DNA of 53,540 nt from Thermoanaerobaculum aquaticum (GTDB taxonomy: Bacteria > Acidobacteriota > UBA4820): NCBI GenBank assembly GCA_020722885.1, contig DYJZ01000003.1, forward strand, positions 1-53,540, written 5' to 3'. Positions 5,380 through 39,805 of this stretch are shown piece after piece (the first letter of the stretch is position 1; each line of letters starts with the position of its first letter). Made by a program: the position numbers and the translations under genes. The notes under the pieces are model-generated. The model was not told the DNA's origin and made no database searches. It saw nothing but the letters and a program-made list of their open reading frames with translations.

Positions 5380-5875
5380 CACATCTGTCCGAAATAAATT
5401 TTGACAGAAGCATCTAAGAAGTCAAGAAGAAGAATGTCAAGACTATTTAGCAATACTCCGTTGTGAGTGCTCACTAACTGTGTCATCGCGAGCATTCCTT
5501 CGAAGGAAAGCCACCGAAGCAATCTTCCTCTTGCTCATAAAGCTGAAACGGAAAGCCTTAGAGAGGTGTTCAATAGGGGTTTGCAAAAATATTTTAATCT
5601 TTTTACGGTTTTTCCACTGCCATTTTAGAGAACATTTTCAATTAGTTTAAGAGAGGAAATTATCATATAGCTTTGACAGGGAACTTATGAACCATCAAAC
5701 CTGAAACCTTTAAGCCCGGCCTTTTTGAGAACCAATTGGAAGCATAATGACATATACAGGCATAAAAACAGTGAGCCTCATTTTCAAGCCTTCCTAAAAC
5801 CCGTCCAAAACCCCCGTTTTTACAGGATCACTTTTCCGATTCTAAATTATCTTGGACAGCAGTGGGACAGCAGTG
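5380..5875 (+). mobile_element. Non-autonomous composite element (MITE) with IS4-like outer inverted repeats
   Basis: Left end CACATCTGTCCGAAATAAATT. Right end AATTATCTTGGACAGCAGTG, with the last 11 nt tandemly duplicated. Colinear with 31418-32034. Confidence 0.8.
5435..5678 (+). mobile_element. Inner element with TGTCAA...TTGACA imperfect inverted repeats, carrying REP units
   Basis: Left TGTCAAGACTATTTAGCAAT versus reverse-complemented right TGTCAAAGCTATATGATAAT. Confidence 0.7.
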
Positions 5876-6686: not shown

Positions 6687-8330
6687 ATGAATAAAGAAAA
6701 GATAATGACTTTTAGAGAAAAGCACAAAGAAAAGGTACAGAAAACACTTAAAGATAAGACTTTTTTATCTTCAACATCGGGATACGAATTTGAACCAATT
6801 TACACCCCTCTCGATATTCCTGAAGATAGCTATATGGAGGATCTTGGGTTCCCCGGAGAATTCCCCTTTACAAGAGGTGTACAGCCGACTATGTACCGGG
6901 GAAAATATTGGACTATGCGGCAGTATGCTGGATTTGGAACTGCGAAAGAATCAAACCAGAGGTACAGGTATCTTATCGAAAAAGGTCAAACGGGGTTATC
7001 TGTTGCCTTTGACCTTCCTACTCAAATGGGGCTTGATTCAGACGACCCATTGTCGCATGGCGAGGTTGGAAAGGTTGGCGTTGCAATAGACACTCTTGAT
7101 GATATGGAGATACTTTTTAAAGATATTCCCCTTGATAGAGTATCAACTTCAATGACCATAAATTCTACAGCCTTTGTTCTTCTTGCGCTTTACATCGCTG
7201 TGGCAGAAAAGAAGGGAGTCGCCTCAGAACTTCTATCGGGAACAATTCAGAACGACATCCTGAAGGAATATATTGCAAGAGGAACTTATGTTTTTCCACC
7301 AACTTCTTCTTTACGTCTGATAACGGATATATTCGAATTTGCCGGTAAGAAAACCCCAAAATTCAATACAATCTCAATATCAGGATACCATATAAGAGAA
7401 GCGGGCTCTTCTGCCGTTCAGGAAATTGCGTTCACATTTCTCAACGGAATAACCTATGTCAAAGCAGCAATTGACAAAGGGCTTGATGTTAACTCCTTCG
7501 GAGAGAGACTTTCCTTCTTTTTCAATGCTCACAATAATTTTATTGAAGAGATTGCAAAATTCAGGGCTGCAAGAAGGCTATGGGCAAAAATTATGAAAAA
7601 TAAATTCAATGCTGAAAATCCTAAAGCTCAGATGCTGCGCTTTCACACACAAACCGCAGGATGCACTCTTCTTGCACAACAGCCAGATGTCAATATAATC
7701 AGGGTAACTCTTCAGGCACTTGCTGCAGTTCTTGGAGGAACACAGTCTCTTCATACAAATTCAAGAGATGAAGCACTTGGGCTTCCTACAACAGAAAGCG
7801 CAACCCTTGCTTTAAGAACCCAGCAGGTTATAGCGTATGAAAGTGGTGTTACAGATATTATTGACCCACTTGGTGGTTCTTACGCTATTGAAGCGCTAAC
7901 AAACAAAATTGAATCAGAAGCAGAAAAACTCATTGAAGAAGTTGAAAAAATGGGAGGAATGGTCACTGCAATTGAAAAAGGATGGGTTCAAAGACAGATA
8001 GAAGACTCTTCTTACAGGTACCAGAAGGAATTAGAACAGAAAAAAAGAATAGTAGTCGGTTTGAATTCATTTACAGAAGAAAAGGAAACCCCGATACCAA
8101 TTTTGAAAATAGACCCAGCACTTGAAGAAGATCAGATAAAAAGGCTTCAGAAAGTTCGAGCGGAAAGAGATAATACAATCGTCGTAAAATGCCTGAAAAA
8201 CCTTAAAGACACCGCAATGTCAAAAGATAATATAATGCCCCCTACACTGGAGGCGGTAAAAAATTACGCAACAATAGGAGAAATCGTCAAAATTTTGAAG
8301 GAGGTTTTCGGGGTCTATAGGGCAACTTGA
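6687..8330 (+). CDS. Methylmalonyl-CoA mutase, N-terminal (substrate-binding) subunit
   Basis: [44 protein letters not shown] and TQSLHTN motifs. No B12-binding domain. Confidence 0.95.
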
Positions 8331-8331
8331 T

Positions 8332-9501
8332 GTGAAAGAAAATTTTACCCCAATCCTGAAAAAAACATTATTCTTTCATACCCTTGCCCTATTTTTCGAA
8401 GGAATACTTAACGGAGTATGGCTTTTAAACGATGTTGTTGCAAGGAAGCATTTTCTTTCAAGTCCCTTTTTAATAACTCTTCTCGTAATGGCTCCTTCAG
8501 CCTCATTAATTCTCTCTCTTCCTCTGGGGCATTTTATTGCAAAATGGAATAAGAAGCCATTTTTTCTTATAGCAGGAATTTTACGACTTTCGCTTCTCTT
8601 TGTTCCTTTATGTGACCAGGCTTTTTGTTTTGTTGTTCTTGCAACAATTACATCAGCATCCTGGCCTATATTTTACACTTCTCAAAATGCAATACTTAAA
8701 GAGAATTATCCCGAAACAAAAAGGGGAAAATACTTCAGTTTGATATACTCCCTTTCAGGTTTTATTGCTATTTTAACCTCCCTTTCCCTGGGCAATTTTT
8801 ATGACTTTCTGACAGATTACATAGTTTATGTTTATCCTTTTGCAGCACTATGCGGTTTTTTTTTCATGTTTTTTGATGTCCAGAATATCTGAGAAAAAGA
8901 GAAATAATGACGAAAATATTGTAACAAATCCTTTTGAAATAATTATGAAAGAAAAAAATTCAGGCAGTTCGAAATTTCATTCTTTTCATACGGCTGCGGT
9001 TATATGATGATGCTTCCCCTTCTTCCTCTTTTTCTTGTTGACCATCTTAAAGTGAACTACACTCAGGCATCATTTCTTAATGGATTTTTTTATCAGGGAA
9101 TGATAGTTCTTTTTTCCTGGGCTGTTGGAAGGCTTTCCGATTCCATAAATCCATTAAAACTTGCAAAAATTGGTTTCCTTTTTCTTTTTTTCTATCCCCT
9201 TTTACTTTCTTTTACAAATTCTATAAGTTACACCTGCTTTGTTTATGCCTTTTATGGTCTCAGTATGGCAATCGTTAATGTAACCTGGTATCTTGCACCA
9301 CTTACATTTTGCAGAAAACCGGAAGAAGCCTCGTCTTTTATGGCGGTCCATGTGGCACTTGCTGGAGTAAGGGCATTTATTGCATTCCCCCTCGGTACCA
9401 TTCTCTATTCTCTTTCAGAAAGTTTTTCTCTTCCCTTTTTTGTATCCTCCTGTCTTTTCTTTATAGGATTTCTAATAATGCCCTTGAAAAAACAACCTTG
9501 A
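8332..9501 (+). pseudogene. MFS transporter split by two compensating homopolymer indels
   Basis: Two hydrophobic halves. Removing one T from T9 (8856-8864) and adding one base at A7 (8952-8958) restores a single ORF of about 390 aa. Confidence 0.75.
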
Positions 9502-9524
9502 CATTCCTTTTCTTCTCATTTTTC

Positions 9525-9698
9525 TGTCAAGACTATTTAGAAATACTCCGTTGCGAGAGCTCACTAACCGTGTCATTGCGAGTGCTCCTTCGGGGCAATC
9601 ACCCCCGAAGCAATCTTCAACTTTTCAACAAAGGAAGATCACTTCGTTTGCAAATACTTCGAAGTGAACCTCATTAGACATTATCAATAATTATGAGA
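9525..9698 (+). mobile_element. Stand-alone inner element with REP units (+ orientation)
   Basis: Starts TGTCAAGACTATTTAGAAATACTCCG, contains GTCATTGCGAGTGCTCCTTCG..CGAAGCAATCTT and ends GACATTATCAATAATTATGAGA. Confidence 0.7.
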
Positions 9699-9875
9699 AA
9701 TTTTTTCGTTATCCTTAACTTTTTATTATTTTTATCTAAAATGACAGGTGGAGGAGAAATGAAAAGAGGACATTTAAGATATAGCCTTTTTTTTAAACTT
9801 CAACAACGAGCAAAAAAAAGCAGATTGACAAAGCACAATGAGAAATATTGTCTATCCTGATATAAAGGAGGTCAA

Positions 9876-11033
9876 ATGAAAAAACTCTTTGTAACTATTT
9901 TTCTTCTTTCCTTTACTCTTTTTGTCTTTGCTAGCAATTGGAACGATAAGCTTTTTGAGGCAGTAAAAAATGGCGATTTAAAAACCGTTGAAAAAGCGAT
10001 AAAGAAAGGCACTGATGTTAATGCAAAGGACAAAGACGGCTTCACGGTGCTGATGAAGGCTGCTGCAAATGGTTACAAAGACATCTGCGAACTTCTTATT
10101 TCAAAAGGTGCCGATGTGAATGCAAAAAACAAAGATGGCAGGACAGCGCTGGACCTGGCAAAAGAAAAAAACAACAAGGCTATAGCAGAACTTTTGATTT
10201 CAAAAGGCGCAGCTGACCCAATGGCAAAGCCAACTGAGAAGCCGCCCATGGAACTGGCTAAATTAAATAAAAACAAGAAAGAAGAGCCCAAGGCAGAAAC
10301 TAAGGAACCGATACAGGTTGCCCAGAACGTTCCAAAAGATAGCAAGAAGCTGAGCCAGGACCAGGGGGCTGGAGAAGTAAAAAAGGAATTGACATTAACT
10401 TTGAAAGAATATGATGAGGTCGGTCAAGTAATGCAGAAACTCATCGAAAAGAAAGAGGTTCGGGAAGTTCATTTAAACGTTGAGCCTAAAGCCGGGAATT
10501 ATGTAACTCAAGCCGAAGAGTGGACAATCTCTTACGAGCAGGGGGGTCCTGGCAATATGTTTACTAAAGGTGTAATTACCAATAAGTATGGCATAGAAAC
10601 TTCTGCCGAGTTCTTTATTTCGATGGCAGTTACAAATTTGGCTATGGAAACTGATCAGGTAGACTGTACTTTCCTTAAAATTTTTACTGTCATAAGACCT
10701 GATGATAGAAGCCAAACTGCATTGATTATTTCAGATAAAGTTGGTGCTGTGTTTTTCACCCTTAATGGGAATAAGAGAATTGTGCGCACTGGGTTCAGTG
10801 CAGGTGACGCTAAAATCGATAAAACACCAAGAATCGATCTTGACGTTGGTTTTGACGAGTATGGCGGCTATATAGACGTGAATGTATCAGATGAAAATGC
10901 AAGACAGAAACTGGCTGATGGCAAGGAAGCTCGTTTGGTGTATAGTGCCGTTTACCCCACGAACGAAGATAATCCGATAGCTCGCCCCCGCATCAGGTTA
11001 CCAACCGTGTTTGTAATCGTGAATGGCGAATAG
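9876..11033 (+). CDS. Secreted ankyrin-repeat protein fused to an unrelated C-terminal region
   Basis: AAGGAGG RBS, signal peptide and about 3 ankyrin repeats (GADVNAKNKDGRTAL) up to residue ~112. The rest is unrecognised. Confidence 0.85.
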   Translation: MKKLFVTIFLLSFTLFVFASNWNDKLFEAVKNGDLKTVEKAIKKGTDVNAKDKDGFTVLMKAAANGYKDICELLISKGADVNAKNKDGRTALDLAKEKNNKAIAELLISKGAADPMAKPTEKPPMELAKLNKNKKEEPKAETKEPIQVAQNVPKDSKKLSQDQGAGEVKKELTLTLKEYDEVGQVMQKLIEKKEVREVHLNVEPKAGNYVTQAEEWTISYEQGGPGNMFTKGVITNKYGIETSAEFFISMAVTNLAMETDQVDCTFLKIFTVIRPDDRSQTALIISDKVGAVFFTLNGNKRIVRTGFSAGDAKIDKTPRIDLDVGFDEYGGYIDVNVSDENARQKLADGKEARLVYSAVYPTNEDNPIARPRIRLPTVFVIVNGE

Positions 11034-11874
11034 AATGGCGGGATCTTGGCAGAAAACTAGCCGTGAGGTTTCGGGAGCACCTTTAGATTCGGGAACATCT
11101 TTAGATTCTATTTTTGTGGTTTTACAGGCTACAGGTATGGACCGATCTTTATTTACCACTAATGGCACTATCGATAAAGCTAAACTAGTTGTTCTACTGG
11201 AAAAAGAATATGGTAAATATGGTCCCAAAAATGGTGGTTGGAGCGCCTTCGTTGATAGTTTAATAGAACTGAGTCAAAATCAAGCAAACGTTTCATTAGA
11301 CTACCAAAAAGCCCAAAAAGCCGCAGGTTTAACAGCTACGTTGGAAGAATCAATAGCAGCAAAGCTCGATGACGAGGCTGCAAAATCTACATCTCGAAAA
11401 GAGAAAATCCGTTTAGAAAATGAAGCTGCAAAACATGAAGGTTCAGCTACCTTTAATCGCACGAAAGAGAAAGCTACATGTCCTGAAGAAATAGCCAGAA
11501 TTGATAAGGACGAAAAACACTTTCTTTTCTTAATCGAAACGAATCAACTTAAAACTGCAGAAGACATTAGGAATTACATGCTCTCTACTTCTTACGCGTC
11601 GGAATTCAAAACTGTTGTTTCTGAGGTCAACCAAATAATATCTCAACTTACTGCCGAAGTGGGGCATAGTGCGGCAAGCCGACAGGAAAACTTAGGCATC
11701 CAATCGACAGAGGAAGGCATAAAGAGTGGCACAGAAAAAAGCACTGAAAAGGAAACCGCAATTGGTCCACTTCTAGATACTGGTGAAGCTGAGACCGAAA
11801 AAGGAAAAAAGAGCGACAAGAAGCCTCTGTGGGCCGAGTATATTCCAAAGAAGAACCACACGGAAGCTTCTTAG
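11023..11874 (+). CDS. Hypothetical helical protein
   Basis: 283-codon ORF overlapping the upstream stop, with no recognisable motif. Confidence 0.7.
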   Translation: MANRMAGSWQKTSREVSGAPLDSGTSLDSIFVVLQATGMDRSLFTTNGTIDKAKLVVLLEKEYGKYGPKNGGWSAFVDSLIELSQNQANVSLDYQKAQKAAGLTATLEESIAAKLDDEAAKSTSRKEKIRLENEAAKHEGSATFNRTKEKATCPEEIARIDKDEKHFLFLIETNQLKTAEDIRNYMLSTSYASEFKTVVSEVNQIISQLTAEVGHSAASRQENLGIQSTEEGIKSGTEKSTEKETAIGPLLDTGEAETEKGKKSDKKPLWAEYIPKKNHTEAS

Positions 11875-11904
11875 TTTCTATTAAGCTTGGAAAGGTGTTT
11901 TCAA

Positions 11905-12549
11905 ATGAAATTCTTCCTGGATTCAGCGAATGTGGAAAAAATCAAGAATGCAGTAGGATTAGGGCTGTGCGACGGCGTTACTACTAATCCAACGATAATA
12001 ATGAAGGAGGGAAAGGAGCAGAAATCCGTAATTTTGGAAATAGCAAAAATAATGAAGGGCCCGCTCAGCGTGGAAGGGATAGGGGAAACCGCTGAGCAGA
12101 TGGTAAAGGACGGGGAGGAATTCGCGAAATGGGCTCCTAATGCGGTTGTGAAGATTCCGATGACCGCGGAAGGGCTGAAGGCGGTAAGGATTCTGGAGAA
12201 AAAAGGGATAAAGACAAACGTTACTTTGGTATTTTCCGCTTCACAGGCGCTTCTTGCAGCAAAGGCAGGCGCATCTTTTGTCTCTCCTTTTGTCGGAAGA
12301 TTGGACGATATTGGGCAGGATGGGATGAAAGTAGTTGAGGATATCGCCCAGATTTACAGGAATTACGGATTCAAGACCGAAATAATAGTGGCTTCGGTAA
12401 GAAGCACAGCCCATGTGGAACGGGCTGCGAAATGCGGCGCACATATAGCTACAATTCCCCCTAAAGTGTTCGAGGAGATGTTTAGGCACCAGCTTACTGA
12501 CAGGGGAATAGCCAGGTTTTTGGAAGATTACAAAAAAGCCAAAAAATAG
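11905..12549 (+). CDS. tal: Transaldolase (short TalC/FSA-type family)
   Basis: FFLDSAN, DGVTTNPT, VVKIP (Schiff-base Lys) and TNVTL motifs. SVE and SPFVGR (Glu/Phe) indicate transaldolase rather than FSA. Confidence 0.93.
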   Translation: MKFFLDSANVEKIKNAVGLGLCDGVTTNPTIIMKEGKEQKSVILEIAKIMKGPLSVEGIGETAEQMVKDGEEFAKWAPNAVVKIPMTAEGLKAVRILEKKGIKTNVTLVFSASQALLAAKAGASFVSPFVGRLDDIGQDGMKVVEDIAQIYRNYGFKTEIIVASVRSTAHVERAAKCGAHIATIPPKVFEEMFRHQLTDRGIARFLEDYKKAKK

Positions 12550-12569
12550 CCTCCTTTTAAGCTCAATCC

Positions 12570-12624
12570 AAACCTTTTTATACATCTTTGCCTAAATTAG
12601 TTATTAGTTGATAACTAAAGGTGA
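12570..12624 (+). promoter_or_regulatory. Archaeal-type BRE/TATA box, operator palindrome and GGTGA RBS
   Basis: AAACC-TTTTTATA (12570-12582), perfect inverted repeat TTAGTTAT-6-ATAACTAA (12597-12618) and AGGTGA (12619-12624). Confidence 0.55.
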
Positions 12625-12629
12625 TTAAT

Positions 12630-12905
12630 ATGACTAAAGGAGTGCAGATAACAATCCAGCATTCGCCCACTCTCAATACAGTGCTCATGGTTGAAAATGC
12701 CATAAGGAACGCAAAGTACAGCGTGGTTACGGTCGCGCAGATAAAGAGGATGCTTCCGAAGCAGGTCAACCACAATACGCTCATGACGGTGCTTGCATAC
12801 CTCGAGGAGAGCAACAAGATAGCTGTAACCCTTAAAGGGATAACCTGGATTCACAATCCGAACCCGAACCTGAGAAAAGCGATTGCAAAGGGAATGGAAA
12901 TATGA
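12630..12905 (+). CDS. Small winged-helix-like protein, putative antitoxin of a DPANN-archaeal gene pair
   Basis: HSPTLNTVLMVE...LPKQV...LAYLEESNKI...GITWI resembles small proteins I recall from Woesearchaeota/Micrarchaeota. ATGA overlap with the next ORF. Confidence 0.65.
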   Translation: MTKGVQITIQHSPTLNTVLMVENAIRNAKYSVVTVAQIKRMLPKQVNHNTLMTVLAYLEESNKIAVTLKGITWIHNPNPNLRKAIAKGMEI

Positions 12906-13036
12906 AAACAGTAAGGTTGTGTTCCCCTGAAGCCGAGGAGGTTTACAAATATTTGAATGAGCATGCTGCGCACTCCAAGAGCGAGCGAACATTCCTCAAC
13001 GCAGTAAACAAGAAAATCGAATTAATGAAACAATGA
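12902..13036 (+). pseudogene. Truncated partner gene (putative RelE-like toxin N-terminus, 44 aa)
   Basis: MKTVRLCSPEAEEVYKYLNEHAAHSKSERTFLNAVNKKIELMKQ*. Translationally coupled to the upstream gene and stops exactly where repeat DNA begins. Confidence 0.55.
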
Positions 13037-13145
13037 GAGTCAGGACTTTAGTCTTGAATTGTCAAGTCTGAAACTGTAGTATCTATCTATAAAATAAAGC
13101 TATTCCTGGATTGCTAGGAAGCCTGAAACCTGTCATTCCGACTAC
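13037..13145. repeat. Degenerate second hairpin family (GTAG-REP/IS200-end-like)
   Basis: TCAGGACT-TT-AGTCTTGA hairpin at 13040-13057, and TTCCTGG..CTAGGAA. Confidence 0.4.
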
Positions 13146-13189
13146 ATCTTAGAAGCATTGACAAAGAAAGGAATCTTCCTCACTTCCAA

Positions 13190-13270
13190 AATAAGGAAGA
13201 TTGCTTCGAAAGACAAGGCTACGAAGGAGCACTCTCAATGACAGGTTACCTCTGCTCGCAATGACTGCTA
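13190..13270 (-). repeat. REP-like cluster (- orientation)
   Basis: GGAAGATTGCTTCG..CGAAGGAGCACTCTCAATGAC..CTCGCAATGAC. Confidence 0.8.
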
Positions 13271-13325
13271 AAAACTTAAAAATGAATTTGTATTGCTGCC
13301 TTTGCTCCTCAAAAGTTTCAAATGT

Positions 13326-13373
13326 TGTGGACTTCCACATTTTCTTGACTTTTTTGGGTTTTGCCTGTAATAT
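13326..13373 (+). promoter_or_regulatory. ackA-pta promoter with upstream palindrome
   Basis: TGTGGA-CT-TCCACA (13326-13339), then TTGACT-17-TAATAT (13345-13373). Confidence 0.5.
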
Positions 13374-13465
13374 AGGAACTCTTCCTGATGAGAAGTTTTT
13401 AAACTCAGAAGGAAACTTTTTATGGCTTTAAATCGCAATAAATTATTTTTTGAGGGGGAAGGAAT

Positions 13466-14713
13466 ATGAATGTTTTTGTTTTAAACACAGGAAGTTCTTC
13501 AGTTAAATTTCAGATTATCACAACCGATCTTGACCTTTTTGAGAATGACGCAGATGAAATGGTAGCAAAAGGTCTAATTGAAAGAATTGGAAAGGAAGAT
13601 GCAATTTTCACTTTAGAGGCAATTGGAAGTGAGCCCGTAAGAGGAACAGAATCAATACACGACCACAGAGAGGCAATTCTTAAAATCAAAAATTGGGTAG
13701 AATCAAAAGAGACAAAAATTAAAGGTGTTAATGGATGGAAAGACATTAACGCAGTAGGGCACAGACTTGTTCACGGTGGTGAAAAGTTTACAAGGTCTGT
13801 TCTCATTACTCCTGAAGTTATTGAGAAGATGGAGGAATGCTCAGACCTTGCTCCTTTGCATAACCCTGCAAATCTGAAGGGTGTTGCAGCCTGTTCTGAA
13901 ATTTTTCCTTCAACCATTCCTCAGGTTGGAGTTTTTGATACAGCCTTCCATTCCACTATGCCTGAAGAGTCCTACCTTTATTCAATCCCTTACGAATTTT
14001 ATGAAAAATACAGAATCAGAAGATACGGCTTCCATGGTACATCGCACAGGTATGTGGCATACAGATACAGAAAATTAACTCAAACCCCACGAGAAAAAAC
14101 AAACATAATTACAATTCATCTCGGTAATGGTTCTTCAATGACTGCAATAAAAAATGGATATTCAATCTTCAACAGTATGGGAATGACCCCTGTGGAAGGT
14201 CTGATTATGGGGACAAGAAGTGGAGATATTGATGCAGGAATTATTGAATATCTCTACAGAAAGGGAATGGGAGAGCTTCCCGATATAATGAATATCCTTC
14301 AGAAGAAGAGTGGAATGCTTGGTATTTCAGGAATTAGCAATGATATGAGAGATATAGAAAAAGCGGCTGCAGATGGGAACAAAAGGGCTCAACTTGCCCT
14401 TAAAATGTTCGCTTTCAGAGTAAAGAAATACATAGGTGCCTGTTTTGCCCAGATGGGTGGCACTGACGCTATTATTTTTACCGGTGGCATAGGTGAAAAC
14501 GATGTTCTTTCGAGGGAAATGATATGTGAAGGGCTGGAATGCCTCGGAATAATACTCGACAAAAACCTTAATAATCAGGCACAGAAGGGCAAATGTATGA
14601 GAATTTCAAAAGAGGAGAGTTCCTGTCATATTTGGGTAATTCCAACAAATGAAGAACTTGTAATTGCAAGAGACACTGTGAGAGTTGTAAAAGATGCTCC
14701 GAGAGAATGGTAG
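13466..14713 (+). CDS. ackA: Acetate kinase
   Basis: VLNTGSSSVKF, GHRLVHGG, LAPLHN, VFDTAFH, RYGFHGTSH, HLGNGSS and PTNEE motifs. Confidence 0.97.
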   Translation: MNVFVLNTGSSSVKFQIITTDLDLFENDADEMVAKGLIERIGKEDAIFTLEAIGSEPVRGTESIHDHREAILKIKNWVESKETKIKGVNGWKDINAVGHRLVHGGEKFTRSVLITPEVIEKMEECSDLAPLHNPANLKGVAACSEIFPSTIPQVGVFDTAFHSTMPEESYLYSIPYEFYEKYRIRRYGFHGTSHRYVAYRYRKLTQTPREKTNIITIHLGNGSSMTAIKNGYSIFNSMGMTPVEGLIMGTRSGDIDAGIIEYLYRKGMGELPDIMNILQKKSGMLGISGISNDMRDIEKAAADGNKRAQLALKMFAFRVKKYIGACFAQMGGTDAIIFTGGIGENDVLSREMICEGLECLGIILDKNLNNQAQKGKCMRISKEESSCHIWVIPTNEELVIARDTVRVVKDAPREW

Positions 14714-31417: not shown

Positions 31418-32034
31418 CACATCTGTCCAAAATAAATTTTGACAGAACCATATAAGAAGTCAAGAAAAAAAATGTCAAGACTATTTAGAAATACTCCGTT
31501 GTGAGTGCTCACTAACCGTGTCATTGCGAGCCCTCTCTAAAATTGTCATGCGAGTGCTCCTTCGTAGCTTCCTTCCGCGAGGCAATCTTCCTCTTCCCAA
31601 ACAAAGGAAGATCACTTCGTTTGTAAAAGCCTCGAAACATCCCTCGTGATGACAGTTAATTGTTATTAACGCAGTCATTGCGAGTGCTCCTTCGAAGGAA
31701 AGCCCCCCGAAGCAATCTTCCTCTTGCTCACAAAGCTGAAACGGAAAGCCTTAGAGGAGTGGTTCAATAGAGGTTTGCAAAAATATTTTAATCTTTTTGC
31801 GGTTTTTCCACTGCCATTTTAGAGAACATTATCATATAGCTTTGACAGGGAACTTATGAACCATCAAACCCGAAACCTATCACTCGAGCCTTTTAGAGAA
31901 CTAATTGGACAGCATAATGACATATACAGGCATAAAAACAGTGAGCCTCATTTTCAAGCCTTCCTAAAAGCCGCCCAGAATCCTCAATTTCTCAGGATTC
32001 CGTTTCCGCTTTCAAATTATCCTCGATAGCAGTG
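31418..32034 (+). mobile_element. Complete nested composite MITE (inner element 31473-31847) with possible 8-bp target duplication
   Basis: CACATCTGTCCAAAATAAATT...AATTATCCTCGATAGCAGTG. Flanks CTGTAAAG and CTGTAACA. Colinear with 5380-5864. Confidence 0.82.
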
Positions 32035-39469: not shown

Positions 39470-39524
39470 CGAAACAAAAAATATTTTCCCCGTCATAAAT
39501 ATACAATGACTGATTAGGATTGAA

Positions 39525-39805
39525 AAGAAGAAGATTGCTTCGCAGGCAAATGCTCCGAAGGAGCACTCGCAATGACAGATTACGCTTGCTCGCAATGACT
39601 GCGCTATTAACAATTGACTGTCATCACGAGTGTGGCTTCGAGGCACGGACAAACGAAGTGATCTTCCTTTGTTTGGGAAGAGGAAGATTGCTTCACGGGA
39701 GAATGCCTCGAAGTGAAATTCGTAATGACAGGGTTAAATTGTAAAGTGGAAGATTGCTTCGAGAGACTTTCCCACGAAGGAGCACTCGCAATGACAGATT
39801 ACGTC
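39525..39805 (-). repeat. REP-like cluster (- orientation, three or more units)
   Basis: Repeated GAAGATTGCTTC...GAAGGAGCACTCGCAATGAC. Aligns with 1-160 and the reverse complement of 31540-31725. Confidence 0.85.

What the first reader, a model, noticed from the sequence alone, without database searches (positions are those of the whole stretch)
10212..13036. Apparent DPANN-archaeal DNA segment inside a bacterial chromosome
Seen: a roughly 2.8-kb stretch with codon usage unlike its neighbours (more GC, many GCG/AAG/ATA codons in 11905-13036). It has AGGTG(A)-type RBSs instead of the host GGAGG and a BRE/TATA-like AAACCTTTTTATA. Both ends look broken: in-frame fusion on the left, a truncated gene on the right. 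Recalled, not searched: the 12630/12902 gene pair resembles small TA-like pairs of Woesearchaeota/Micrarchaeota, and short transaldolases are common there. Inference: a recent archaea-to-bacterium transfer of a random chromosomal fragment that kept an intact transaldolase.
Basis: partly seen in the sequence, partly recalled or inferred. Interest (0 to 1): 0.85.

Follow-up and report, generated by a model that had tools for sequence, protein, structure and literature searches.

The report
Archaeal DNA fragment inside bacterial chromosome
A hot-spring/biofilm bacterium of the Acidobacteriota carries a roughly 2.7-kb piece of foreign DNA whose identifiable genes come from tiny DPANN archaea (Micrarchaeota), a rarely seen fresh transfer from archaea to bacteria that gave the bacterium a sugar-metabolism enzyme its close relatives lack.

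Summary
Window 10328-13033 differs in composition from the host. It lies inside a 3.8-kb stretch (9502-13331) that a congeneric genome lacks at the same MFS-ackA site.

- **Transaldolase (11905-12549):** it is nested in a Micrarchaeota clade (support 99/96). An AU test rejects grouping it with the host order's transaldolases (p 1.5e-5). No transaldolase was found in the three nearest genomes.
- **Next two genes:** they form a wHTH/ParE-like pair found in 89 of 201 Micrarchaeota genomes and in 0 of 200 other genomes of the host phylum. Their archaeal BRE/TATA-operator-GGTGAT leader is conserved. The toxin is cut after 43 of about 117 residues.
- **Left end:** host signal peptide and ankyrin repeats are fused in frame to a rare domain. 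That domain was found in 1-2 of 201 Micrarchaeota genomes and 0 of 200 host-phylum genomes.
- **Orf283:** it is an orphan, so the left half may have a separate origin.
- **Assembly chimera is unlikely:** an independent contig bridges the left junction at matching depth. A second, 112.7-kb assembly holds the same proteins.
- **Caveats:** the right junction runs through a high-copy host repeat, and the closest donor relatives are only 73-86% identical.

This is a new instance of interdomain transfer, not a new kind of system.

The parts
9502..13331 (.). Stretch present in G000 but missing at the same site (MFS stop to ackA promoter) in congeneric genome G001
   Evidence: G001 contig C294 (L014) aligns to window 8226-9490 and then directly to 13338-13776, with a spacer of about 65 nt
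9525..9672 (.). Left copy of a high-copy host interspersed repeat (inverted-repeat arm 9571-9618)
   Evidence: Inverted repeat I1, 48 nt, 79% complementary to 13196-13243. 56-108 blastn hits per position; the hits of both flanking repeat queries together fall on 77 G000 contigs, and several of the listed hits lie within about 300 nt of a contig start. Logan depth about 1490-2740 against about 27 in the flanks
9876..10327 (+). Host-type 5' part of the ankyrin gene: signal peptide, three ANK repeats and a linker, with a GGAGG RBS
   Evidence: Pfam Ank_2/Ank at residues 21-137. Paralogues with the same N-terminus in G000, G001 and G003. Host-like composition. Run X2 holds 9729-10327 at about 91-98% identity, and its 1020-nt contig diverges after 10327
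10328..11033 (+). Foreign 3' part fused in frame: a rare C-terminal domain of about 210 aa and unknown function
   Evidence: Only 4 distant relatives among 1.84 billion representatives. The profile finds it in 1 (E 3.2e-25, beside a gene I read by eye as a proteasome alpha subunit; not run through any family search) plus 1 marginal of 201 Micrarchaeota genomes, and in 0 of 200 other host-phylum genomes
11023..11874 (+). Orf283, an orphan ORF that overlaps the ank stop by 11 nt
   Evidence: Self-hit only in the 5.8-billion protein set. 0 of 201 Micrarchaeota genomes. One marginal hit (8.1e-4) among 200 other host-phylum genomes. No Pfam family
11905..12549 (+). Intact short transaldolase (TalC/subfamily-5 type), Micrarchaeota-like
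   Evidence: PF00923 205 bits. TIGR00875 292.5 bits against a cut-off of 245.95. Full-length match to solved transaldolases 1vpx, 3r8r and 3s0c (227-247 bits), against 112 bits for FSA 1l6w. Phylogeny
12571..12629 (+). Archaeal-type leader: BRE/TATA-like box, palindromic operator TTAGTTAT..ATAACTAA and a GGTGAT Shine-Dalgarno
   Evidence: By my reading of the alignment, the same three elements stand in the same order upstream of 13 of 14 Micrarchaeota homologues inspected (L120 lacks them). DNA similarity to L106 starts at about 12576
12630..12905 (+). Orf94: small winged-helix-like protein, the putative antitoxin/autorepressor of the pair
   Evidence: 89 of 201 Micrarchaeota genomes, best 76% identity. 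2512 relatives at E<=1e-10, best 84%. AF2 model with pLDDT 76.5 and an H-H-H-E-E-H order. Foldseek top hits are wHTH regulators, none at E<=0.001
12902..13036 (+). Remnant (43 of about 117 codons) of a ParE/RelE-like toxin gene. The foreign DNA ends at about 13031-13038
   Evidence: Alignment A1. The homologue follows the orf94 homologue, with a 4-nt ATGA overlap in the loci checked, in 14 of 15 loci L106-L120. PF05016 is hit by 4 of 9 alignment members, best E 7.5e-5
13190..13349 (.). Right copy, inverted, of the host repeat. The ackA promoter follows
   Evidence: The alignment to G001 resumes at 13332

Best explanation
Window 10328-13033 is foreign DNA integrated in the chromosome of an Acidobacteriota (Thermoanaerobaculaceae-like) bacterium. 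Its right half at least (tal plus a toxin-antitoxin-like cassette, about 11889-13033) came from a Micrarchaeota-like DPANN archaeon.

The fragment looks like a random piece of donor DNA, because both ends cut through genes:
- The left end joined in frame to the 5' part of a host gene for a secreted ankyrin protein. Host promoter, RBS, signal peptide and ANK repeats now precede a foreign C-terminal domain.
- The right end truncates a ParE-like toxin after 43 codons.

Inferred, not shown:
- The DNA was taken up as free DNA in a biofilm and inserted by illegitimate recombination, in a rearrangement-prone spot bracketed by high-copy host repeats.
- Ank-fusion, orf283 and tal sit tightly on one strand, so they are probably transcribed from the host ank promoter.
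- AGGTG-type Shine-Dalgarno sites also pair with the bacterial 16S 3' end (established knowledge).
- The intact transaldolase adds the enzyme not found in the host family's otherwise present non-oxidative pentose phosphate pathway, which would favour retention.
- Losing the toxin made the cassette harmless and left an orphan wHTH protein.
For: **Insertion.** G001, of the same genus, goes from the MFS gene to ackA with a spacer of about 65 nt.

**Host is bacterial.** The contig carries hrcA, dnaK, dnaJ, tsf and accC and ackA-pta. Members of the 90% AckA cluster are labelled Thermoanaerobaculaceae or Acidobacteriota.

**Transaldolase.**
- In the genome-contig scan, eight of the nine best hits are labelled Micrarchaeota or Micrarchaeia and one 'uncultured archaeon', at 63-70% identity. 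The best bacterial hit is 61%.
- In the careful tree of 46 rows, the window is nested in a 99/96 clade of 10 archaeal-labelled and 6 metagenome rows. The host-order transaldolases form a separate 100/99 clade.
- The AU test rejects window plus host order as one clade (lnL difference 98.2, p 1.54e-5).
- Clade contigs are archaeal: Orc1/Cdc6 on L027 and archaeal PEP carboxylase on L023, both above cut-off.
- PF00923 is found in 1 of 4 genomes (G000 only). G001, G002 and G003 are 88, 97 and 95% complete.
- Transketolase_N and Rpe are found in 4 of 4.

**TA pair.**
- Found in 89 of 201 Micrarchaeota-phylum genomes; this count includes unpublished G230, so 88 of 200 without it.
- Found in 0 of 200 other host-phylum genomes.
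- Of the 120 listed hits, 15 carry an organism name and all 15 are Archaea.
- The pair is conserved in 14 of 15 loci.
- The archaeal promoter-operator-SD leader is conserved.

**Ank C-terminal domain.** 1 strong and 1 marginal hit in 201 Micrarchaeota genomes, against 0 of 200 host-phylum genomes.

**Composition and codons.**

**Not a chimera.**
- Logan contig rec4 of run X1 spans 9624-12378 with 0 mismatches at depth 23.3. Rec5 spans 12395-13197 at depth 26.5. The flanks are at 27.3.
- Exact orf283, orf94, orf44, AckA and MCM proteins are each on 2 contigs, the longest 112,732 nt. An ank variant with 1 changed residue lies on a contig of that length.

**Strain-level evidence.**
- One X2 contig matches 10084-10327 and then runs on unlike for 776 nt.
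- One X2 contig joins 9674 to 13039, but with only 24 letters on the shorter side, below the tool's 30-letter guide.
Against: - The closest relatives are distant: TAL 73%, orf94 84%, orf44 86% over 43 aa, DNA 75%. The donor lineage is therefore unsampled.
- Orf283 has no relative anywhere.
- AnkC and orf283 use codons unlike tal and the TA pair.
- In 13 of 13 clade loci with enough upstream sequence, tal follows a transketolase C-half gene. The window has orf283 there instead, and no tal locus has the TA pair beside it. The island may be a mosaic, or the donor may have another gene order.
- Both outer junctions to MFS and ackA run through a repeat with tens of copies in the host, where assemblers can misjoin. 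The position between MFS and ackA is thus less certain than the presence in the host genome.
- X1 is probably the source sample, so its contigs are not independent data.
- DPANN transaldolases are themselves reported as bacteria-derived (PMC8407392, passages read). Tal alone could not name an archaeal donor.
- Expression and enzyme activity are untested.
Confidence: 0.8

Rival explanations
1. The immediate donor was not an archaeon. It was a bacterium, plasmid or virus that already carried Micrarchaeota-type genes, or the island was built in two or more separate events from different donors.
For: - Orf283 and ankC have no or almost no archaeal relatives.
- The left and right halves use codons differently.
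- The tktC-tal synteny seen in 13 of 13 relatives is missing.
- The literature reports DPANN transaldolase as bacteria-derived.
Against: - All 10 organism-labelled rows in the window's TAL clade are archaeal; the 6 metagenome rows in that clade, including the window's sister L128_mg, carry no organism label.
- The TA family was not found in 200 host-phylum genomes, and all 15 organism-named hits are archaeal.
- The archaeal BRE/TATA-operator leader is retained intact.
- The island holds no integrase, transposase or phage gene.
Confidence: 0.12
2. Assembly or binning chimera: reads of a co-occurring Micrarchaeota genome were joined into a bacterial contig at shared repeats.
For: - Both outer junctions lie in a repeat with depth about 1500-2700.
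- Several of the listed repeat hits lie within about 300 nt of a G000 contig start.
- The genome is a metagenome bin of 107 contigs.
Against: - The inner junction at about 10328 is unique sequence, and a Logan contig (9624-12378) bridges it. That contig also carries host-type ank 5' sequence and part of the host-specific repeat.
- Island depth is 23.3-26.5 against 27.3 for the flanks.
- A second assembly places the island proteins and the flank proteins on contigs up to 112.7 kb.
- A middle-of-contig insert would need two misjoins.
Confidence: 0.05
3. The genes are ancestral to the host lineage and were lost in its relatives.
For: Same-order genomes do have short transaldolases (17 of 25 genomes of family f2).
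Against: - Those are only 52-57% identical and form a separate 100/99 clade, and the AU test rejects the union.
- The composition is foreign.
- A congener has an empty site.
- The TA family was not found in the host phylum sample.
Confidence: 0.02

Closest known systems
Interdomain (archaea-to-bacteria) horizontal gene transfer, as described for thermophilic bacteria such as Thermotoga and Aquifex (recalled, not searched)
   Same: Archaeal-type genes sit in a bacterial chromosome with atypical composition and archaeal phylogenetic placement. The habitat is thermal or a biofilm.
   Different: - This is a strain- or species-level event with an empty site in a congener.
- The donor is of DPANN type.
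- The raw fragment is still visible: both ends are truncated, there is an in-frame fusion, and the archaeal promoter and operator are still intact.
Short transaldolases of subfamily 5 (T. maritima 1vpx, B. subtilis 3r8r, T. acidophilum 3s0c)
   Same: The alignment is full length at 227-247 bits, with the VKIP lysine motif and SPFVGR conserved. The assignment of these motifs to catalysis, and of Phe rather than Tyr to transaldolase rather than FSA, is recalled.
   Different: It belongs to a Micrarchaeota-dominated clade. It stands without the rpe-tkt genes that precede it in all 13 relatives examined.
ParDE/RelBE-type type II toxin-antitoxin modules
   Same: Two small genes with a 4-nt overlap. 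The upstream gene is a DNA-binding-like protein with a palindromic operator in its promoter. The downstream gene weakly matches ParE_toxin.
   Different: - The antitoxin is winged-helix-like, not RHH or Phd.
- No Pfam or NCBIfam model reaches its cut-off.
- All 15 organism-named hits are archaeal, 11 of them labelled DPANN (Micrarchaeota, Iainarchaeum, Woesearchaeota) and 4 Thermoplasmatota or Euryarchaeota.
- The window's toxin is truncated.
LGT surveys of DPANN genomes (PMC8407392, passages read; PMC12892359, abstract and one passage read)
   Same: They document heavy gene exchange involving DPANN. They mention genes in DPANN hosts putatively received from DPANN donors, and the non-oxidative PPP in Micrarchaeota.
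   Different: In the passages seen, those surveys stress bacteria-to-DPANN flow and archaeal hosts. The supplementary table of DPANN-to-host transfers could not be opened.

Membership tests
Transaldolase/FSA family (PF00923), transaldolase subfamily 5 | Full-length match above curated cut-offs | tested here: met
   PF00923 205.1 bits against 27. TIGR00875 292.5 bits against 245.95. Residues 1-211 align to 1vpx.
Transaldolase/FSA family (PF00923), transaldolase subfamily 5 | Schiff-base lysine motif, and Phe rather than Tyr in the SPxVGR motif, which separates transaldolase from FSA (roles recalled) | tested here: met
   VVKIPMT and SPFVGR align with the same motifs of 1vpx, 3r8r and 3s0c. Scores to transaldolases are 227-247 bits against 112 bits for FSA 1l6w.
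Transaldolase/FSA family (PF00923), transaldolase subfamily 5 | Enzymatic activity | not testable with these tools
   Needs expression and an assay.
Type II toxin-antitoxin module, ParE/RelE superfamily | Toxin matches a ParE/RelE model | tested here: inconclusive
   PF05016 is hit by 4 of 9 alignment members, best E 7.5e-5. For L106 the score is 16.3 bits, below the cut-off of 23. The PDB profile search found nothing relevant.
Type II toxin-antitoxin module, ParE/RelE superfamily | Conserved two-gene operon with an overlapping stop/start and an operator palindrome | tested here: met
   14 of 15 loci hold the pair. The ATGA overlap was seen in the window, L106 and L108. A conserved palindrome is seen.
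Type II toxin-antitoxin module, ParE/RelE superfamily | Intact toxin in the window | tested here: not met
   Only 43 of 114-117 residues remain.
Horizontally acquired genomic island | Absent at the orthologous site in a close relative | tested here: met
   G001. G002 and G003 have other genes after the MFS gene.
Horizontally acquired genomic island | Atypical composition | tested here: met
Horizontally acquired genomic island | Phylogeny of the cargo conflicts with the host phylogeny | tested here: met
Horizontally acquired genomic island | Mobility genes (integrase, transposase) or a tRNA target | tested here: not met
   None among the island ORFs. There are only flanking host repeats. No tRNA scan was run.
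Archaeal promoter | BRE/TATA box conserved at a fixed distance upstream of orthologues in archaea | tested here: met
   Alignment of 14 upstream regions. By my reading, 13 of the 14 carry the box, operator and SD; L120 does not.
Archaeal promoter | Transcription start mapped | not testable with these tools
   No RNA run was found (one search lists only runs marked 'DNA?').

The most novel reading that the evidence does not exclude
The fragment is a footprint of physical contact. On this reading a Micrarchaeota-like DPANN archaeon lives attached to, or in very close consortium with, this Thermoanaerobaculaceae-like bacterium. The bacterium would then be a host or partner of a DPANN archaeon, and symbiont DNA would leak into it as it does in known DPANN-archaeon pairs.
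Probability: 0.08. Interest if true: 0.85.

Novelty: new member of a known kind. Interest (0 to 1): 0.55.

Why it matters
Transfers from archaea to bacteria are thought to be rarer than the reverse (recalled), and DPANN archaea are mostly discussed as recipients. Here the raw product of such a transfer can still be read:
- a random fragment with both ends cut inside genes;
- an in-frame fusion that captures a host promoter and signal peptide;
- an archaeal promoter-operator left intact;
- a disarmed toxin;
- one gene with clear use, a transaldolase not found in the three nearest genomes.

This gives a concrete case for studying how archaeal genes become expressed in bacteria. It also shows which organisms share a biofilm closely enough to exchange DNA.

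Tried and rejected
**Runs.**
- Run X2 shows no cover over 10440-12960, and runs X3 and X4 show almost none. This is contig data and is recorded here only. It is not evidence of absence.

**Family and profile searches that gave nothing usable.**
- Pfam and NCBIfam gave nothing above cut-off for orf94, orf44, orf283 or ankC. The LIC11177_fam hit for orf283 (E 0.014, 16 bits against 190) was rejected as noise.
- The ESM Atlas gave no usable lead for ankC (recognition below the bar) or for orf283 (TM at most 0.36).
- Foldseek of the orf94 model gave no hit at E<=0.001, only a general winged-helix likeness.
- The PDB profile search with the toxin alignment returned only designed repeat proteins at E about 0.4.
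- Rfam found nothing in 9300-13500 apart from one chance hit at E 0.78.
- Sigma-70-like promoters (8 found, 7.2 expected) and terminators (4 found, 4.2 expected) are not above chance.

**Searches for the donor.**
- No island ORF other than tal was found in the flanks of 80 genome loci or 80 metagenome loci. The one exception is an ankyrin ORF beside tal in L027, judged a coincidence of ANK repeats.
- No transaldolase closer than 73% was found in metagenome contigs.
- Viral contigs was not scanned.

**Other checks.**
- The other most 'Micrarchaeota-like' windows of the genome (C33, C103, C9, C41) were examined. They are giant RHS, PKD and Big-domain surface proteins with no rRNA, so they are not further archaeal islands.
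- The careful tree with all 100 rows did not finish in two runs. A subset of 46 of those 100 rows was used instead. It kept every row of the window's clade that I had, 6 of 9 host-relative rows and 21 other rows spread over the tree.
- Earlier scan notes held nothing for this place, the repeat or the topic.


Full report
**What is in the sequence**

The window is contig C80 of a 1.9-Mb, 107-contig genome bin, 91% complete. The contig is bacterial. It carries hrcA, dnaK, dnaJ, tsf and accC, and methylmalonyl-CoA mutase, ackA and pta. Proteins at least 90% identical to its AckA are labelled Thermoanaerobaculaceae or Acidobacteriota bacterium by NCBI. This agrees with an earlier scan note on the same genome.

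Five ORFs lie on the + strand between a split MFS gene (8332-8892 and 9004-9501) and ackA (13466-14713):
- ank (9876-11033);
- orf283 (11023-11874);
- a transaldolase (ATG at 11905, ending 12549);
- orf94 (ATG at 12630, ending 12905);
- orf44 (12902-13036).

GC rises to 0.43-0.46 across 10-13 kb. The flanks are at 0.35-0.37 and the genome at 0.377.

A third-order Markov likelihood ratio flips from host-like to Micrarchaeota-like between about 10200 and about 13000. The island's 1-kb windows lie at or above the 99th percentile of 3642 genome windows.

The codon claims are right for 11905-13036. GCG, AAG and ATA are all about doubled, and GC3 is 0.51-0.58 against 0.31.

**It is an insertion relative to a congener**

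In G001, of the same genus (AckA 87-94% identical over its two contig fragments), one contig aligns to window 8226-9490 and then directly to 13338-13776. The two parts are separated by about 65 nt. So 9502-13331 is extra in G000.

G002 and G003 have other genes after the MFS gene. The site is therefore rearrangement-prone.

The extra stretch is bracketed by inverted copies (9571-9618 and 13196-13243, 79% complementary) of a repeat. That repeat gives 56-108 blastn hits per position in G000, and the hits of the two flanking repeat queries together fall on 77 contigs. Several of the listed hits lie within about 300 nt of a contig start.

**Where the genes come from: the transaldolase**

- It is a full-length short transaldolase.
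- No transaldolase was found in G001, G002 or G003, by protein search or by PF00923. Transketolase_N and Rpe are present in all four genomes.
- Among one genome per species of GTDB, eight of the nine best hits are labelled Micrarchaeota or Micrarchaeia and one 'uncultured archaeon', at 63-70% identity. Bacteria start at 61%.
- A quick tree of 90 rows places the window in an SH-aLRT 97 clade of 11 rows, namely the window plus 10 archaeal rows. A careful tree of 46 rows places it in a 99/96 clade of 17 rows, namely the window, the same 10 archaeal-labelled rows and 6 metagenome rows. There it is nested as sister to a metagenome contig.
- The host order's own transaldolases form a separate 100/99 clade. 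Forcing the window to join them costs 98 lnL units (AU p 1.5e-5).
- Contigs in the archaeal clade carry Orc1/Cdc6 and archaeal PEP carboxylase above cut-off.

**Where the genes come from: orf94 and orf44**

- Orf94 has relatives in 89 of 201 sampled genomes of the Micrarchaeota phylum, the best at 76% identity. One of the 89 is the unpublished G230.
- It has none in 200 other genomes of the host phylum.
- In the 5.8-billion protein set it has 2512 relatives at E<=1e-10, the best at 84%. All 15 organism-named entries among the 120 listed are archaeal: 8 Micrarchaeota, 2 Iainarchaeum, 1 Woesearchaeota, 2 Thermoplasmatota and 2 'Euryarchaeota'.
- In 14 of 15 loci the orf94 homologue is followed by a homologue of orf44, with a 4-nt ATGA overlap in the loci checked (L106, L108). 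That protein is 114-117 aa long in 11 of them. The window keeps only residues 1-43.
- Four of nine alignment members hit ParE_toxin, best E 7.5e-5.
- The orf94 model is winged-helix-like, with pLDDT 76.5.
- By my reading, 13 of the 14 homologues inspected carry a conserved xTTTATATA box upstream, then a palindrome and GGTGAT (L120 does not). The window has the same three elements at 12571-12629. This is an archaeal promoter with an autoregulation operator, carried over intact.

**The left half is less clear**

- The ank protein's first 137 residues are a signal peptide and ANK repeats, with paralogues in G000 and its relatives.
- Its last 250 residues have only four distant relatives among 1.84 billion representatives.
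- A profile of these finds one clear copy in a Micrarchaeota genome (E 3.2e-25, beside a gene I read by eye as a proteasome alpha subunit; it was not run through any family search) and one marginal hit, among 201 genomes. It finds none in 200 host-phylum genomes.
- Orf283 matches nothing.
- Both use codons unlike tal and the TA pair.
- In 13 of 13 relatives with enough upstream sequence, tal follows a transketolase C-half gene, which the window lacks.

The 2.7 kb may therefore be one fragment of an unsampled donor with another gene order, or a mosaic. I cannot tell which.

**Is it an assembly artefact?**

Two runs hold the stretch: X1, which is probably the source, and X2, a hot-spring metagenome from another study. 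Only Logan contigs could be laid.

In X1 the contigs break at the two repeats. However, one contig covers 9624-12378 without a mismatch, so it bridges host-type ank 5' sequence and the foreign core. A second contig covers 12395-13197. Their depths are 23.3 and 26.5, against 27.3 for both flanks.

Exact copies of orf283, orf94, orf44, AckA and the mutase are each on record on two contigs, the longest 112.7 kb. A one-residue variant of the ank protein is on a contig of that length. A chimera would need two misjoins and matching abundance, so I rate it at about 5%.

What stays open is the exact chromosomal position, because both outer joins pass through the repeat.

**Boundaries and age**

- In X2 the flanks are 98.5-99.2% identical to the window.
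- One X2 contig follows the ank gene to 10327 and then continues with 776 nt unlike the window.
- Another X2 contig joins 9674 to 13039, but with only 24 letters on one side.
- Homology to Micrarchaeota toxin genes ends at about 13030.

The unameliorated composition, the intact archaeal leader and the empty site in a congener all fit a recent event, and the weak X2 contig evidence would put it at strain level. The 73-86% identities to known archaea reflect an unsampled donor, not age.

**Mechanism**

Shown:
- the fragment is foreign;
- both its ends are truncated;
- the left junction is in frame;
- the transaldolase is intact and fills a gap in the family's gene set.

Inferred:
- free-DNA uptake and illegitimate recombination, since the island has no mobility genes;
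- transcription of ank-fusion, orf283 and tal from the host ank promoter;
- selection for the transaldolase;
- harmlessness of the cassette after the toxin was lost.

**Literature**

Two searches found no report of a Micrarchaeota-to-bacterium transfer of this kind. The terms were 'Micrarchaeota', 'horizontal gene transfer' and 'transaldolase', and 'interdomain', 'DPANN', 'horizontal gene transfer' and 'from archaea to bacteria'. A third search on DPANN and gene transfer listed general surveys.

PMC8407392 (passages read) states that DPANN transaldolase and transketolase were acquired from Bacteria. It also states that some genes in DPANN hosts seem to come from DPANN donors, but its supplementary table was not available.

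So the transaldolase may have travelled from bacteria to DPANN long ago and back to a bacterium recently. The archaeal TA cassette beside it is what identifies the last donor.

**Verdict**

This is a real and well-supported archaea-to-bacterium transfer of a small random fragment. It is a new instance of a known process, with an unusually legible structure. Interest is moderate.

Noticed in passing
window 8332-9501: The MFS transporter gene is split into two same-frame ORFs (186 and 165 aa) by a stop at 8890-8892. G001 and G002 have intact frames of 389-406 aa. The X2 strain differs by a 1-nt deletion at 8856 and a 1-nt insertion at 8951, so the gene is probably a recent pseudogene next to the island.
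   Followed up: partly
window 9525-9672, 13190-13349, also 112-205, 5435-5492, 31473-31720, 39520-39796: A modular interspersed repeat with units of about 58 nt, of the TGTCATTGCGAG...GAAGCAATC type. It gives 56-108 blastn hits per position in G000, several of the listed ones within about 300 nt of a contig start. Its metagenome depth is 50-100 times that of the genome. It brackets the island in inverted orientation.
   Followed up: partly
L106-L120 (Micrarchaeota genomes) and window 12571-13036: A large two-gene family whose 15 organism-named hits are all archaeal (11 labelled DPANN) and which no Pfam or NCBIfam model covers. It pairs a 90-95-aa winged-helix protein with a 114-117-aa ParE-like protein, with a conserved TATA box, palindromic operator and GGTGAT. 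The first gene has 2512 relatives, and some genomes hold up to 6 copies.
   Followed up: partly
window 10344-11033; P0003-P0006; L212 1345-2205: A very rare C-terminal domain of about 210 aa. It has 5 members among 1.84 billion representatives plus one in a Micrarchaeota genome. It is attached to different N-terminal modules: ANK repeats, a beta-propeller, or low-complexity linkers after a signal or TM segment.
   Followed up: partly
L027 5667-6833 (-): In one Micrarchaeota genome a 389-aa ankyrin-repeat protein lies directly downstream of the transaldolase, convergent to it, on a contig that also carries Orc1/Cdc6. This is probably unrelated to the window's ank gene.
   Followed up: no
L023, L025-L031, L042, L128-L130, L132: The Micrarchaeota-type transaldolase follows a transketolase C-half gene on the same strand in all 13 loci with enough upstream sequence. 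In the four loci whose ORFs were scanned (L023, L027, L028, L128) the order is rpe, transketolase N-half, transketolase C-half, tal.
   Followed up: partly
G000 contigs C33:1-5417, C9:2-4342, C103:323-2968, C41:1000-5555: Giant GC-rich genes for surface proteins (RHS/teneurin-like, 1805 aa; PKD; Big; trypsin-like) are the most compositionally deviant parts of the genome. They are bacterial in type.
   Followed up: partly
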